In this document: in pieces, positions 21,575-35,762 of the stretch
Layout: each line of letters opens with the position of its first letter
Position numbering within the stretch: the first letter of the stretch is position 1
Assembly: GCF_003334335.1 (NCBI RefSeq)
Contig: NZ_QOWQ01000015.1
Length of the DNA stretch: 64,000 nt
Origin: Escherichia coli
GTDB lineage: Bacteria > Pseudomonadota > Gammaproteobacteria > Enterobacterales > Enterobacteriaceae
Strand: one strand, 5' to 3'
Translations under genes and position numbers: made by a program
The notes under the pieces: model-generated
Database searches by the model: none
Told to the model about the DNA's origin: nothing
What the model saw: only the letters and a program-made list of their open reading frames with translations

Positions 21575-21812
21575 TTGTCGGATGCACGACCCGTAGGCCG
21601 GATAAGGCGCTCGCGCCGCATCCGGCAATCAATGCCTGATGCGACGCTGTCGCGTCTTATCAGGCCTACAACTATTGCCGACCTGTAGGCCGGATAAGGC
21701 ACTTGTGCCGCATCCGGCAATCAATGCCTGATGCGACGCTGTCGCGTCTTATCAGGCCTACAACTGTTGCCGACCCGTAGGCCGGATAAGGCGCTCGCGC
21801 CGCATCCGGCAG
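21575..21812. repeat. Tandem REP/BIME array (about 2.5 copies of a roughly 92-bp unit) between rhaD and rhaA
   Basis: Unit ccgtaggccggataaggcgctcgcgccgcatccggcaatcaatgcctgatgcgacgctgtcgcgtcttatcaggcctacaact recurs starting near 21591, 21683 and 21775. Confidence 0.9.
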
Positions 21813-30598: not shown

Positions 30599-30685
30599 TG
30601 TAGGCCTGATAAGACGCTATCAGCGTCGCATCAGGCATCCTGCTCAAATGCCGGATGCGGCGTAAACGCCTTATCCTGCCTGCAA
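30599..30685. repeat. REP pair (BIME) between yiiM and cpxA
   Basis: gtaggcctgataagacgctatcagcgtcgcatcaggca … tgccggatgcggcgtaaacgccttatcctgcctgca. Confidence 0.85.
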
Positions 30686-30694
30686 ATGCGAAGT

Positions 30695-32068
30695 TTAACT
30701 CCGCTTATACAGCGGCAACCAAATCACCAGCCGTAAACCGCCCAGCGGGCTGTCTTCTGCCTTCACCCAGCCACGATGCTGCTGAATGGCGGTTTCAACA
30801 ATCGCCAGCCCCAAACCTGTACCGCCAGATTCACGATCGCGTGCTTCATCGGTACGATAGAACGGACGGAAAATCTGTTCGCGATCTTCCGGGCTAACGC
30901 CAGGACCATCGTCGTCCACCGTAATGGTGATACCGTCTTTATCTACCGCAAAGCCCACTTCAATCTTCGTATGGGAATAACGCAGAGCATTACGAACAAT
31001 GTTTTCCAGCGCACTTTCCAGGGCGTTCGGATTGCCGTACAGCGGCCACGGCCCAGGCGGGAAGTTAACTGTCAACGACTTGCCCATTTGCTCGGCTTCG
31101 AACGCCGCGTTATCCAGCACTTCACTCCACAACTGGTTGGCTTTGATGGTTTCGCTAACCAGCGCGTTTTTTTGCTGATTACGTGACATCACCAACAGAT
31201 CGTTGATCATGCTGTCCAGACGTTGCGCTTCGGTTTCAATACGCTCCAGTTCCTTGCTTTCACCGCTACGACGGCGCAGTAACGCCGTACCCAGTTGCAG
31301 ACGCGTCAGCGGGGTGCGCAGCTCGTGAGAGATATCAGAAAGCAGACGCTGCTGAGAGGTCATCATGCGCTCCAGCGCGGTGACCATCTGGTTAAAACTG
31401 GCACCTGCGGCAAGGAATTCCTGTGGCCCCGCTTCCAGTTCCGGGTGCTGGCGTAAGTTTCCCTGGGCAACTTCATCGGCAGCGTTTTTCAGCTTACGCG
31501 CCGGTTTTGCCAGACTCCAGGCCAACCACAACAGCAGCGGCGTACTGACCAACATGGTGACAATCAGCAGTAATAGCGGGCGGTCAAACAGTAAGTTAAT
31601 GAAATCGGATTGAGAACTGCTGGCCGGACGAATCAGATAAAGTTGGTAATTATCTTCGCCATCACGCACGGAGAACGGACCGACCAGTTCCACGCGGCCA
31701 TACTTTTTCTTCTGCGGATGATCGGCGTTATCGGCCTGACCAATAAAGTTACGAATGATCTGCATTTCGCTGCGTTCAGCGCCGATCACGCGGCCTTCGG
31801 TGGTCACCAATAACAAACGCTGTCCTGGCGGTGCCCACTTATCAATCGCCCGGAACAGACGCCGCCACCACATTAAATCGTTGGGCGGATCGTTCGCCAG
31901 CTCCGCTTCGACATGCTGCTCAATCATCAGCCCCTGACGCTGTTCGCTATCCAGAAGCTCGGTCATCTGGCGTGAATCGAGCTTGGGTAACATCAAAACC
32001 AACATCAACACCAGCGCCAGCGTCAGCCAGAAGATGGCGAAGATGCGCGCGGTTAAGCTGCCTATCAT
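30695..32068 (-). CDS. cpxA: Envelope-stress sensor histidine kinase CpxA
   Basis: ORF track, 457 aa; HAMP, H-box (SHELRTPL) and HATPase motifs. Confidence 0.96.
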   Translation of the reverse strand: MIGSLTARIFAIFWLTLALVLMLVLMLPKLDSRQMTELLDSEQRQGLMIEQHVEAELANDPPNDLMWWRRLFRAIDKWAPPGQRLLLVTTEGRVIGAERSEMQIIRNFIGQADNADHPQKKKYGRVELVGPFSVRDGEDNYQLYLIRPASSSQSDFINLLFDRPLLLLIVTMLVSTPLLLWLAWSLAKPARKLKNAADEVAQGNLRQHPELEAGPQEFLAAGASFNQMVTALERMMTSQQRLLSDISHELRTPLTRLQLGTALLRRRSGESKELERIETEAQRLDSMINDLLVMSRNQQKNALVSETIKANQLWSEVLDNAAFEAEQMGKSLTVNFPPGPWPLYGNPNALESALENIVRNALRYSHTKIEVGFAVDKDGITITVDDDGPGVSPEDREQIFRPFYRTDEARDRESGGTGLGLAIVETAIQQHRGWVKAEDSPLGGLRLVIWLPLYKRS

Positions 32069-32763
32069 GAAGCAGAAACCATCAGATAGCCGCGACCACG
32101 CAAGGTTTTAAACCACGGGTGACCATCTTTACGATCCGGCAGTTTACGACGCAGGTTGGAAATGTGCATATCAATAGCGCGGTCGAAAGGCGTCAGGCGT
32201 TTGCCCAACACTTCCTGGCTTAAATGTTCACGGGAAACCACCTGACCCAGATGCTGTGCCAGCAAATAGAGCAGGGTAAACTCAGTACCGGTTAACTCCA
32301 GCGTTTGCCCGTCGAAGCTGGCTTCCTGACGGCCTGGATTCAGCACTAAGGCATCAACTTCCAGTGTCGGTGAACCGTTGTCGTTGTTTTGCTGTTGCTC
32401 GCTCCAGTGCGAACGGCGCAGGATCGCGCGAATACGTGCCACCAGCTCACGATCATTAAACGGTTTCGGGAGATAGTCATCTGCGCCCAGCTCAAGGCCG
32501 AGAACGCGATCAAGTTCACTGCCGCGCGCCGTCAACATAATGACAGGCGTCTGGTGTGTCTGGCGAAGTGCTTTTAATGTGTCGATACCATTTTTCTTCG
32601 GCATCATTACGTCAAGCAAAAGTAAATCAATGCTGTCGTCCAGAAGATCAAGCGCCTGTTCCCCATCGTGGGCAACAATCACGTTGAAGCCTTCCATCTC
32701 GAGCAGCTCCTTTAATAGGGAAGTCAGCTCTCGGTCATCATCAACTAACAGGATTTTATTCAT
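32065..32763 (-). CDS. cpxR: OmpR-family response regulator CpxR
   Basis: ORF track, 232 aa, MNKILLVDDDRELTSLLKELL…; ATGA overlap with cpxA. Confidence 0.96.
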   Translation of the reverse strand: MNKILLVDDDRELTSLLKELLEMEGFNVIVAHDGEQALDLLDDSIDLLLLDVMMPKKNGIDTLKALRQTHQTPVIMLTARGSELDRVLGLELGADDYLPKPFNDRELVARIRAILRRSHWSEQQQNNDNGSPTLEVDALVLNPGRQEASFDGQTLELTGTEFTLLYLLAQHLGQVVSREHLSQEVLGKRLTPFDRAIDMHISNLRRKLPDRKDGHPWFKTLRGRGYLMVSAS

Positions 32764-32818
32764 TGTTTAAATACCTCCGAGGCAGAAATTACGTCATCAG
32801 ACGTCGCTAATCCATGAC

Positions 32819-32833
32819 TTTACGTTGTTTTAC
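32819..32833 (-). promoter_or_regulatory. CpxR-P binding box (GTAAA-N5-GTAAA) in the divergent cpxR/cpxP promoter region
   Basis: Plus strand TTTACgttgtTTTAC, i.e. GTAAAacaacGTAAA on the minus strand; further GTAAA at about 32866. Confidence 0.7.
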
Positions 32834-32912
32834 ACCCCCTGACGCATGTTTGCAGCCTGAATCGTAAACTCTCTATCGTTGAATCGCGACAGAAAGATTT
32901 TGGGAGCAAATG

Positions 32913-33413
32913 ATGCGCATAGTTACCGCTGCCGTCATGGCCTCAACGCTGGCAGTCAGTTCATTAAGCCACGCTGCTGAAGTCGGTTCAGGCGATAACT
33001 GGCATCCGGGTGAAGAACTTACGCAGCGCAGTACGCAGAGCCATATGTTCGACGGCATAAGTTTAACCGAACATCAGCGTCAGCAGATGCGAGATCTTAT
33101 GCAACAGGCCCGGCACGAACAGCCTCCTGTTAATGTTAGCGAACTGGAGACAATGCATCGCCTTGTCACCGCAGAAAATTTTGATGAAAACGCTGTGCGC
33201 GCACAGGCAGAAAAAATGGCGAATGAGCAAATTGCTCGTCAGGTTGAGATGGCAAAAGTCCGCAACCAAATGTATCGCCTGTTAACGCCGGAGCAGCAAG
33301 CGGTTTTAAACGAGAAACATCAACAACGAATGGAGCAGTTGCGTGACGTGACGCAATGGCAAAAAAGTTCATCGTTGAAGCTATTGAGTAGTAGCAACTC
33401 ACGTTCCCAGTAG
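32913..33413 (+). CDS. cpxP: Periplasmic Cpx-pathway inhibitor/adaptor CpxP
   Basis: ORF track 32910..33413; signal peptide; two LTxxQ motifs ([16 protein letters not shown]). Confidence 0.95.
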
Positions 33414-33421
33414 TAAACCCT

Positions 33422-33481
33422 GTTTTCCTTGCCATAGACACCATCCCTGTCTTCCCCCACATGCTGTGGGGGTTTTTTTTA
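33422..33481 (+). ncRNA. cpxQ: CpxQ, sRNA processed from the cpxP 3'UTR (ends at the cpxP intrinsic terminator)
   Basis: About 60 nt between the cpxP stop and a strong terminator hairpin (cccccacatgctgtggggg + T8); the 5' end is an estimate. Confidence 0.5.
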
Positions 33482-33561
33482 TCCTCAATTTGCCTGCTGC
33501 TTAATGCATTGCAGATGATTTGCTTCCGTTATACTAGCGTCAGTTGATAGCGGGAGTATTT

Positions 33562-34464
33562 ATGAATCAATCTTATGGACGGCTGGTCAGTCGGGCGGCG
33601 ATTGCTGCGACGGCGATGGCTTCGCTGCTATTGCTGATTAAAATTTTTGCATGGTGGTATACCGGGTCGGTGAGTATTCTCGCCGCGCTGGTGGATTCGC
33701 TGGTGGATATCGGCGCGTCGTTGACGAATTTATTGGTGGTGCGATATTCCCTGCAACCTGCCGACGATAATCACTCGTTTGGTCACGGTAAAGCTGAGTC
33801 CCTCGCGGCGCTGGCGCAAAGTATGTTTATCTCCGGTTCGGCACTATTCCTGTTTTTGACGGGTATTCAACATCTGATATCTCCAACACCGATGACAGAT
33901 CCAGGCGTCGGGGTTATCGTGACAATTGTGGCGCTAATTTGTACGATTATCCTTGTCTCGTTTCAGCGTTGGGTGGTGCGGCGGACGCAAAGCCAGGCGG
34001 TGCGGGCTGATATGCTACATTACCAGTCTGATGTTATGATGAACGGCGCAATTCTGCTGGCGCTGGGGTTGTCCTGGTACGGCTGGCATCGCGCCGATGC
34101 TCTGTTTGCATTGGGAATCGGCATCTATATTTTATATAGCGCGTTACGCATGGGATATGAGGCGGTACAGTCATTACTGGATCGCGCATTGCCTGATGAG
34201 GAACGGCAAGAAATTATTGATATCGTGACTTCCTGGCCGGGTGTTAGCGGCGCTCACGATCTTCGCACGCGGCAGTCAGGGCCGACCCGCTTTATTCAGA
34301 TTCATTTGGAAATGGAAGACTCTCTGCCTTTGGTTCAGGCACATATGGTGGCGGATCAGGTAGAGCAGGCTATTTTACGGCGTTTTCCGGGATCGGATGT
34401 AATTATCCATCAGGACCCCTGTTCCGTCGTACCCAGGGAGGGTAAACGGTCTATGCTTTCATAA
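33562..34464 (+). CDS. fieF: Cation-diffusion-facilitator Fe/Zn efflux transporter
   Basis: ORF track 33544..34464; start at [13 protein letters not shown]… (300 aa). Confidence 0.93.
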
Positions 34465-35661: not shown

Positions 35662-35762
35662 ATGCCTGATGCGCTTCGCTTATCAGGCCTACATGAATTC
35701 TGCAATTTATTGAATTTGCAAACTTTTGTAGGCCGGATAAGGCGTTCGCGCCGCATCCGGCA
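35662..35762. repeat. BIME/RIP-type element (REP – A+T spacer – REP) between pfkA and sbp
   Basis: atgcctgatgcgcttcgcttatcaggcctaca … gtaggccggataaggcgttcgcgccgcatccggca; spacer resembles those at 7331-7365 and 55080-55113. Confidence 0.85.

What the first reader, a model, noticed from the sequence alone, without database searches (positions are those of the whole stretch)
33414..33481. cpxP 3'UTR and terminator: probable CpxQ sRNA
Between the cpxP stop and a very strong intrinsic terminator (cccccacatgctgtggggg + T8) lies about 60 nt of structured sequence. In E. coli and Salmonella the cpxP 3'UTR is processed by RNase E into the Hfq-dependent sRNA CpxQ, which represses inner-membrane protein mRNAs. 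The sequence here is consistent with that arrangement, but the 5' processing site cannot be fixed from sequence alone.
Basis: partly seen in the sequence, partly recalled or inferred. Interest (0 to 1): 0.35.

Follow-up and report, generated by a model that had tools for sequence, protein, structure and literature searches.

The report
Known CpxQ small RNA after cpxP
The stretch after the cpxP gene is the already described and annotated E. coli small regulatory RNA CpxQ, cut from the tail of the cpxP messenger. It is base-for-base identical to the reference copy, so it is an ordinary, known feature.

Summary

- **Identity:** Window 33423-33480 (+) matches all 58 bases of the curated ncRNA cpxQ (b4716) of E. 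coli K-12 MG1655, which lies 9 nt after the cpxP stop codon.
- **Conservation:** In 80 other Enterobacteriaceae species a ~40-nt core is invariant, while CpxP protein falls to about 71% identity and the downstream DNA becomes unalignable. The terminator stem shows compensatory changes.
- **Target pairing:** The seed forms long ungapped helices with published targets: 12 bp with nhaB at +299..+310, 11 bp across the skp Shine-Dalgarno region, and 8 bp with cfa at -135..-128.
- **Promoter control:** The window's only exact CpxR box sits upstream of cpxP.
- **Published experiments:** Work in E. coli and Salmonella shows a stable 58-nt, RNase E-processed, Hfq-dependent RNA.
- **Open point:** The exact 5' end cannot be fixed from sequence. 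The annotated cut matches 3 of 4 positions of the RNase E consensus, and the bond one base downstream matches 4 of 4.
- **Side note:** Rfam has no CpxQ family. Its Hrs1 family (RF02628) is the reverse complement of CpxQ orthologues.

Novelty: already known. Interest is low.

The parts
32819..32833 (-). CpxR consensus box GTAAA-N5-GTAAA (GTAAAACAACGTAAA) in the cpxR-cpxP intergenic region. It ties cpxP/CpxQ transcription to the Cpx envelope stress response.
   Evidence: This is the only exact match in the 64-kb window, against 0.09 expected by chance. That this consensus is the CpxR box is established knowledge. CpxR dependence of cpxP is stated in PMC4817254 and PMC9438474.
32913..33413 (+). 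cpxP coding sequence, the parental mRNA of the sRNA. TAG stop at 33411-33413, followed by an in-frame TAA at 33414-33416.
   Evidence: ORF list and the MG1655 annotation of cpxP, b4484, 501 nt. Homologues carry Pfam LTXXQ (PF07813) and source names of CpxP.
33418..33426 (+). Processing-site region CCCUG|UUUU. By annotation the 5' end of CpxQ is U33423. The adjacent bond 33423|33424 is the full RN|WUU match.
   Evidence: Annotated 5' end. Motif scan: 33422|33423 matches 3/4 and 33423|33424 matches 4/4. CCCTGTTTT is present in all 80 Enterobacteriaceae loci. RNase E cleavage at a conserved site near the cpxP 3' end is reported in the review PMC9438474. Cleavage was not tested here.
33423..33480 (+). 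CpxQ sRNA, 58 nt.
   Evidence: Matches 58/58 bases of the MG1655 ncRNA cpxQ b4716. A 58-nt species was seen on Northern blots in E. coli (PMC6755755).
33423..33435 (+). Unpaired 5' seed UUUUCCUUGCCAU (nt 1-13), an anti-Shine-Dalgarno-like sequence.
   Evidence: Predicted unpaired. CCUUGCCAUAGA is kept even in CpxP loci at about 48-62% protein identity. Ungapped helices with nhaB, skp and cfa, against a background of 0.019 helices of >=11 bp per 300 nt. The 5' end is stated to be the seed for nhaB and cfa in PMC6755755.
33436..33452 (+). Hairpin 1: arms AGACA (33436-33440) and UGUCU (33448-33452), loop CCAUCCC (33441-33447).
   Evidence: Present in the MFE and centroid folds and in the RNAalifold consensus. 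There is no covariation: all 5 pairs are invariant across the 80 species. The arms are retained while the loop changes in distant loci L150 and L151, with one A-U to G-U change.
33445..33455 (+). Second copy (CCCUGUCUUCC) of the 11-nt direct repeat. The first copy (CCCUGUUUUCC, 33418-33428) spans the processing site. Its role is not established.
   Evidence: Repeat found by the repeat finder, 10/11 identical, spacing 27. Both copies are invariant in the 80 species. A 9-bp complementarity to cfa -176..-168.
33454..33480 (+). Rho-independent terminator: stem CCCCCACA/UGUGGGGG (33454-33461 / 33465-33472), loop UGC, U8 tail (33473-33480). It is also the expected Hfq-binding 3' module.
   Evidence: Terminator scan and inverted repeat. 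Compensatory changes at 2 pairs across the 80 species and at 3 pairs once distant loci are added. Hfq dependence comes from the literature and was not tested here.

Best explanation
Window 33423-33480 (+) is CpxQ, the known Hfq-dependent small RNA derived from the cpxP 3'UTR.

Mechanism, step by step:
1. Envelope stress activates CpxA/CpxR. CpxR~P drives the cpxP promoter through the GTAAA-N5-GTAAA box at 32819-32833. (Literature; the box itself was seen here.)
2. Transcription runs through cpxP and stops at the intrinsic terminator at 33454-33480. (Sequence level.)
3. RNase E cuts the mRNA at the conserved CCCUG|UUUU site 9-10 nt after the stop codon and releases a 5'-monophosphate RNA of about 58 nt. 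Hfq stabilises it, probably through the U8 tail. (Literature; not testable here.)
4. The unpaired 5' seed UUUUCCUUGCCAU pairs with target mRNAs. At Shine-Dalgarno regions (skp) this blocks translation. Inside the nhaB coding sequence it promotes RNase E decay. In the cfa 5'UTR it increases Rho-dependent termination. (Literature; the complementarity was verified here.)

CpxQ thus acts as the non-coding arm of the Cpx response and lowers the load of membrane and periplasmic proteins.
For: - **Identity and context:** 58/58 identity to the curated cpxQ b4716, in the same gene order.
- **Spread within E. coli:** the 196-base query around it matches in 5426 of 5426 complete genomes.
- **Conservation:** in 80 Enterobacteriaceae species the block from CCCTG to the T-run keeps 96.8% of E. 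coli bases. The last 150 nt of cpxP keep 81.3% and the 60 nt after the T-run keep 58.1%. The core CCCTGTTTT(T)CCTTGCCATAGACACCATCCCTGTCTTCCCC is invariant.
- **Terminator:** the stem carries compensatory changes.
- **Fold:** z = -2.8 with an unpaired seed.
- **Target pairing:** 12 bp with nhaB +299..+310, 11 bp with skp -17..-7 across AAGGAG, 11 bp with nhaB -16..-6, and 8 bp with cfa -135..-128. The background is 0.019 helices of >=11 bp per 300 nt.
- **CpxR box:** the only exact one in the window lies upstream of cpxP.
- **Published experiments:** PMC4817254, PMC9438474, PMC10250213, PMC6755755, bioRxiv 10.1101/2024.02.02.578684, 10.1101/2024.10.18.618624, 10.1101/2025.09.11.675593.
Against: Nothing contradicts the reading. 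Its limits are these:
- There are no expression data for this particular strain, which differs from MG1655 by about 21 SNPs and a REP-array length over 50 kb.
- The annotated 5' end matches only 3/4 positions of the RNase E motif, while the neighbouring bond matches 4/4.
- Hairpin 1 has no covariation support.
- Loop-tolerant duplex energies for nhaB, skp and the cpxP 5' region were no better than shuffled sRNA. Only cfa stood out, at z = -3.75.
- Rfam gives no hit at gathering threshold on the + strand.
- The primary paper (Chao & Vogel 2016) could not be read.
Confidence: 0.97

Rival explanations
1. The conserved 3'UTR acts only in cis, as the terminator and a stability element of cpxP mRNA or as insulation from fieF. 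It would have no trans-acting RNA product.
For: A strong intrinsic terminator is present. [quoted passage not shown]
Against: A terminator does not explain an invariant 35-nt unpaired or weakly paired stretch upstream of it across 80 species, when the terminator stem itself is free to vary. The seed is complementary to validated targets. A trans function has been shown with plasmid-borne CpxQ.
Confidence: 0.01
2. CpxQ is a primary transcript made from its own promoter inside the 3' end of cpxP (the MicL/DapZ type), not a processing product.
For: Some 3'UTR sRNAs do have internal promoters (MicL). The promoter scan used here is crude.
Against: No sigma-70-like promoter was found in 32600-33700. 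This is weak evidence, because the scan also misses the cpxP promoter itself. The literature reports RNase E processing, loss of CpxQ when the cleavage site is mutated, and a natural 5' monophosphate. The RNA would begin with U, which is a poor start nucleotide (noted in PMC10250213).
Confidence: 0.015
3. The functional RNA is on the minus strand, as the orientation of the Rfam Hrs1 model (RF02628) would imply.
For: The best Rfam hit is on the minus strand: 41.4 bits in the window, and 64.6-83.4 bits in three related loci.
Against: Read on the minus strand, the element starts with A8 followed by the GC hairpin and has no U-tail, so it is a reverse-complemented terminator. Zeng & Sundin list hrs1 on the same strand as cpxP and fieF, with a Rho-independent terminator. 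The curated E. coli annotation is on the + strand.
Confidence: 0.005

Closest known systems
CpxQ of E. coli K-12 (b4716) and Salmonella (Chao & Vogel 2016; Grabowicz et al. 2016)
   Same: Identical 58-nt sequence, position, strand and neighbouring genes. The seed, hairpin and terminator are the same, and so is the complementarity to nhaB, skp and cfa.
   Different: Nothing differs in the RNA itself. Against most other species, including Salmonella enterica subspecies (L012, L021), the E. coli K-12 terminator loop is UGC rather than UGA. The host strain differs from MG1655 by a few SNPs elsewhere.
Hrs1 of Erwinia amylovora (Rfam RF02628)
   Same: It lies between cpxP and fieF on the same strand, is Hfq-regulated and has a Rho-independent terminator. 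Reverse-complemented, the model consensus reads ...CCCUGUUUaCCUUGCCA...UCCCUGUCUaCCCC-stem-U7, which is the CpxQ layout. The model hits directly after cpxP in related loci.
   Different: The Rfam model is built on the opposite strand. The E. coli sequence scores 41.4 bits, below the gathering score of 56.4. The original paper classed Hrs1 as restricted to Erwinia, whereas the sequences show it is the CpxQ orthologue.
Other RNase E-processed, Hfq-bound 3'UTR sRNAs (SdhX, NarS, SroC)
   Same: Each is released from the 3' end of an mRNA near the stop codon, shares the parental terminator, carries a 5' monophosphate and has a seed at or near the new 5' end.
   Different: The parental genes, regulons and seeds differ. 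CpxQ comes from a monocistronic mRNA and serves the Cpx envelope response.
MicL and DapZ (3'UTR sRNAs with their own internal promoters)
   Same: They overlap the 3' end of a coding gene, share its terminator and depend on Hfq. MicL also acts in envelope stress.
   Different: They are transcribed from internal promoters. CpxQ is reported to use the cpxP promoter and to arise by cleavage.

Membership tests
CpxQ sRNA | Sequence identity to the experimentally defined and curated CpxQ | tested here: met
   Window 33423-33480 matches 58/58 bases of NC_000913.3 4106330-4106387, ncRNA cpxQ b4716.
CpxQ sRNA | Lies in the 3'UTR of cpxP, on the same strand, starting just after the stop codon, in the cpxRA / cpxP-fieF context | tested here: met
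   cpxP is 32913-33413 and the RNA starts at 33423. cpxR and cpxA are divergent upstream, and fieF and pfkA lie downstream. The 3'UTR core lies directly after cpxP in all 80 other species. The cpxRA / fieF-pfkA neighbours were seen in most of the distant loci.
CpxQ sRNA | Conserved unpaired 5' seed complementary to validated targets (nhaB CDS, skp translation initiation region, cfa 5'UTR) | tested here: met
   12 bp with nhaB +299..+310, 11 bp with skp -17..-7 and 8 bp with cfa -135..-128. Helices of >=11 bp occur at 0.019 per 300 nt in the background. The seed is invariant. Loop-tolerant duplex energies did not discriminate except for cfa.
CpxQ sRNA | Rho-independent terminator with a long U-tail (the Hfq-binding 3' module) | tested here: met
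   8-bp stem with 6 G-C pairs, 3-nt loop and U8. Compensatory changes in the stem. Hfq binding itself was not tested.
CpxQ sRNA | 5' end generated by RNase E cleavage of cpxP mRNA (5' monophosphate) | not testable with these tools
   Only motif-level evidence is available: the annotated cut matches 3/4 positions of RN|WUU and the next bond matches 4/4. Experimental support comes from the literature.
CpxQ sRNA | Expression driven by the CpxR-dependent cpxP promoter | tested here: met
   At sequence level only. The window's single exact GTAAA-N5-GTAAA box lies at 32819-32833, 80-94 nt upstream of the cpxP start codon.
CpxQ sRNA | Hfq-dependent stability and function | not testable with these tools
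   Literature only.
Rfam RF02628 Hrs1 | Covariance-model score at or above the gathering threshold (56.4 bits), in the orientation of the model | tested here: not met
   The window scores 41.4 bits (E = 6.8e-7 for the 301-base search), and only on the minus strand. Related loci score 64.6-83.4 bits, also on the strand opposite to cpxP. The model therefore appears to be the reverse complement of the real RNA.

The most novel reading that the evidence does not exclude
The 11-nt direct repeat CCCUGU(U/C)UUCC (33418-33428 and 33445-33455) may not be incidental. The first copy holds the RNase E processing site. The second copy, half buried in hairpin 1, could be a masked second RNase E/Hfq recognition element or a second seed. 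That would give a shorter isoform of about 31-36 nt, or a second target-binding surface. Two hints point this way: a 9-bp match to cfa -176..-168 inside the region reported as an Hfq site, and the two Northern bands reported for the Erwinia orthologue Hrs1. From memory and unverified here, the primary Salmonella paper may already describe a second conserved pairing region. If so, little of this would be new.
Probability: 0.12. Interest if true: 0.25.

Novelty: already known. Interest (0 to 1): 0.07.

Why it matters
For the scan, this confirms that a reader working from raw sequence correctly recognised a textbook 3'UTR-derived sRNA, and no new biology follows. CpxQ itself matters because it is the non-coding arm of the Cpx inner-membrane stress response.

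The one practical by-product concerns annotation. Rfam 15 has no CpxQ family, and its Hrs1 family models the orthologue on the wrong strand. This is probably why the listed pipeline-annotated E. coli genomes show no cpxQ feature under the match, while the curated MG1655 record does.

Tried and rejected
1. **Metagenome DNA-pattern scan for Erwinia-type CpxQ** (TGTTTVCCTTGCCAN{5,11}TCCCTG). It returned 56 hits. None has a cpxP homologue on its contig (tblastn) and none shows a CpxQ-like terminator, so all are chance matches.
2. **The search for homologous proteins with CpxP**. It listed only Escherichia and Shigella proteins at >=88% identity, which was no use for distant taxa. The representative search followed by the look-up of encoding contigs worked instead. 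P0126 was not on record.
3. **Loop-tolerant duplex energies (RNAduplex) of CpxQ nt 1-38 against targets**. nhaB, skp and the cpxP 5' region were no better than shuffled sRNA (z from -0.2 to +0.6), and only cfa was significant. I replaced this with ungapped-helix counts against a 128-kb background.
4. **Self-targeting of the cpxP 5' region** (suggested by PMC4817254). No ungapped helix of >=7 bp was found with cpxP -60..+120.
5. **Seed matches of >=11 bp elsewhere in the window** (yiiG, metB and glpK coding sequences, and antisense to the metL-metF spacer). These hits are themselves the background set and none lies at a translation start, so I do not treat them as targets.
6. **Primary literature.** The primary paper (Chao & Vogel 2016) is not held. 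The Erwinia paper's supplement has no Hrs1 sequence.
7. **Minus-strand ORFs overlapping the region** (33166-33462 and 33320-33460). They are mechanical ORFs antisense to cpxP. The conservation is a solid invariant block with no codon-like periodicity and it ends at the T-run, so I reject a coding reading.

Full report
**Observation**

The window around the finding carries cpxA (30695-32068, -), cpxR (32065-32763, -), cpxP (32913-33413, +), fieF and pfkA. cpxP ends with TAG at 33411-33413, followed by an in-frame TAA.

Three details of the description need correcting:
- There are 40 nt between the stop codon and the terminator stem, not about 60.
- Most of that stretch is predicted unpaired.
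- Base 33481 lies outside the RNA.

The 58-nt RNA folds into a small hairpin (arms AGACA/UGUCU, 33436-33452) plus the terminator. The energy is -17.4 kcal/mol, z = -2.8 against dinucleotide shuffles.

**Identity**

The curated RefSeq record of E. coli K-12 MG1655 annotates an ncRNA, cpxQ (b4716, 'small regulatory RNA CpxQ'), at 4106330-4106387. It begins 10 nt after the last base of cpxP. Window 33423-33480 is identical to it at all 58 positions, and the flanks are identical too.

The 196-base query around it matches in 5426 of 5426 complete E. coli genomes, with at least 80% of the query covered in 4591. None of the 15 listed records carries a cpxQ feature under the match. They show only cpxP.

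Where I compared it (window 14185-64000), the window is about 99.9% identical to MG1655. There are about 21 SNPs and a shorter REP array between rhaD and rhaA.

**Conservation**

A scan of one genome per species returned 80 cpxP loci from Enterobacteriaceae other than E. coli, with CpxP protein identity from 100% down to 71%.

- In all 80, the 3'UTR contains CCCTGTTTT(T)CCTTGCCATAGACACCATCCCTGTCTTCCCC. The only change is a 4-versus-5 T length difference.
- The block from CCCTG to the T-run keeps 96.8% of E. coli bases on average. The last 150 nt of cpxP keep 81.3% and the 60 nt after the T-run keep 58.1%.
- This agrees with the published remark that the region is more conserved than any other part of cpxP (PMC9438474).

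The terminator stem is free to vary and does so in a compensatory way (CCCCCACA/TGTGGGGG, CCCCCTCA/TGAGGGGG, CCCCTCC/GGAGGGG, CCCCGCC/GGCGGGG). Two pairs change on both sides across the 80 species. The covariation score is 0.130, against 0.049 in shuffles and at most 0.062 when partners are slid. Three pairs change on both sides once more distant loci are added.

Hairpin 1 never varies across the 80 species, so covariation neither supports nor refutes it. In distant loci (CpxP about 48-62% identical) its arms persist while the loop changes (L150, L151), with one A-U to G-U change. Across those loci the constant parts are CCUUGCCAUAGA, the hairpin arms and the terminator.

**Mechanism**

Steps shown or supported here at sequence level:
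- The only exact CpxR box (GTAAA-N5-GTAAA) in the 64-kb window lies at 32819-32833, upstream of cpxP (0.09 expected by chance).
- A strong intrinsic terminator defines the 3' end.
- The 5' 13 nt are unpaired.
- That seed forms long ungapped helices with published targets:
  - nt 7-18 with nhaB +299..+310 (12 bp)
  - nt 3-13 with skp -17..-7, across the AAGGAG Shine-Dalgarno sequence (11 bp)
  - nt 4-11 with cfa -135..-128 (8 bp)
- In 128 kb of window sequence, helices of >=11 bp with nt 1-18 occur at 0.019 per 300 nt.
- The nhaB coding-sequence site and the cfa 5'UTR site agree with the positions described in PMC10250213 and PMC6755755.

Steps taken from the literature and not testable here:
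- RNase E cleaves cpxP mRNA at a conserved site near its 3' end. Hfq sharpens the cut and protects the product.
- The E. coli product is 58 nt, carries a 5' monophosphate and is very stable, with a half-life above 16 min.
- It represses nhaB, skp, agp, ydjN and fimA.
- It represses cfa mainly by increasing Rho-dependent termination.
- It also represses fad genes via FadL, and gcd and psiF, and it contacts CsrB.

**The 5' end**

Against the RNase E motif RN|WUU (quoted in PMC6755755), the annotated bond 33422|33423 (UG|UUU) matches 3 of 4 positions. The next bond, 33423|33424 (GU|UUU), matches 4 of 4.

**Rivals**

- **Cis-only terminator or 3'UTR.** This does not explain an invariant unpaired block upstream of a stem that itself varies, and a trans function has been shown with ectopic CpxQ.
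- **Internal promoter.** None was found, although that scan is weak. The literature reports processing and loss of the RNA when the cleavage site is mutated.
- **Minus-strand RNA.** Only the orientation of an Rfam model suggests this (see the next section).
- **Small ORFs.** The conservation pattern excludes them.

**Database side finding**

Rfam 15 reports nothing here at gathering thresholds. A permissive scan gives RF02628 'Hrs1' on the minus strand over 33408-33480, at 41.4 bits against a gathering score of 56.4, covering the whole model.

- The model consensus starts with A7 followed by a GC hairpin, which is a reverse-complemented terminator.
- Hrs1 was defined in Erwinia amylovora as an Hfq-regulated sRNA between cpxP and fieF, on their strand, with a Rho-independent terminator (PMC4070566).
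- In loci oriented with cpxP on the + strand, Hrs1 hits directly after cpxP on the minus strand. The scores are 83.4, 74.7 and 64.6 bits in L145, L144 and L148, and sub-threshold in three more.
- The + strand sequences there are plainly CpxQ.

So Hrs1 is the CpxQ orthologue, modelled on the wrong strand. The original paper's view that it is confined to Erwinia does not hold.

**Verdict**

The feature is already known and curated, so interest is low. The only loose ends are minor:
- The 1-nt ambiguity of the processing site.
- An 11-nt internal repeat, CCCUGU(U/C)UUCC, whose second copy has no assigned role.
- An 11-bp complementarity to the E. coli nhaB translation initiation region, although PMC10250213 states that this site is not conserved in E. 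coli.

Noticed in passing
window 33408-33480 (-); L145 2029-2101, L144 2011-2084, L148 2005-2078 (all - relative to cpxP): Rfam RF02628 'Hrs1' appears to be the reverse complement of the cpxP-3'UTR sRNA, that is, of CpxQ orthologues. It hits directly after cpxP on the opposite strand at 64.6-83.4 bits in three related loci and at 41.4 bits (below threshold) in E. coli. Rfam has no CpxQ family. The listed pipeline-annotated E. coli genomes show no cpxQ feature under the match.
   Followed up: yes
window 33418-33428 and 33445-33455: An 11-nt direct repeat, CCCTGTTTTCC / CCCTGTCTTCC, with 27-nt spacing. The first copy spans the annotated RNase E cut and the second overlaps the 3' arm of hairpin 1. 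Both are invariant in 80 species. The second copy is complementary over 9 bp to cfa 5'UTR -176..-168.
   Followed up: partly
L082 (MG1655 nhaB), positions -16..-6 relative to the AUG: CpxQ nt 1-11 can form an 11-bp helix (2 G:U) with the E. coli nhaB Shine-Dalgarno region GGUAAGGGAAA. PMC10250213 states that the translation-initiation-region site is not conserved in E. coli.
   Followed up: partly
window 32819-32833 (-): The only exact CpxR consensus box (GTAAAACAACGTAAA) in the 64-kb window lies in the cpxR-cpxP intergenic region.
   Followed up: yes
window 33462-33464: The E. coli K-12 terminator loop is UGC. Most of the 80 other species have UGA, including Escherichia sp. and E. albertii, and a few have UGAC or longer loops.
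   Followed up: no
window 21583-21811 (between rhaD and rhaA): The REP / naRNA4 (RF02564) array is 185 nt shorter than in MG1655. The window has two Rfam naRNA4 hits there (21596-21666 and 21688-21758). Across the part compared (14185-64000) the window differs from MG1655 by only about 21 SNPs, so it is a close relative of K-12 rather than MG1655 itself.
   Followed up: partly
window 12459-12517 (-), 49378-49435 (-), 54047-54099 (+), 30603-30680 (-), 35685-35726 (-), 55079-55120 (+): Other Rfam hits at gathering threshold are a SECIS_3 element, the ClpQY (hslVU) promoter element, the L31 (rpmE) leader, a further naRNA4 REP unit and two ES036 (CssrF) elements. The hslVU and rpmE hits sit beside their annotated genes. 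The rest were not checked further.
   Followed up: no
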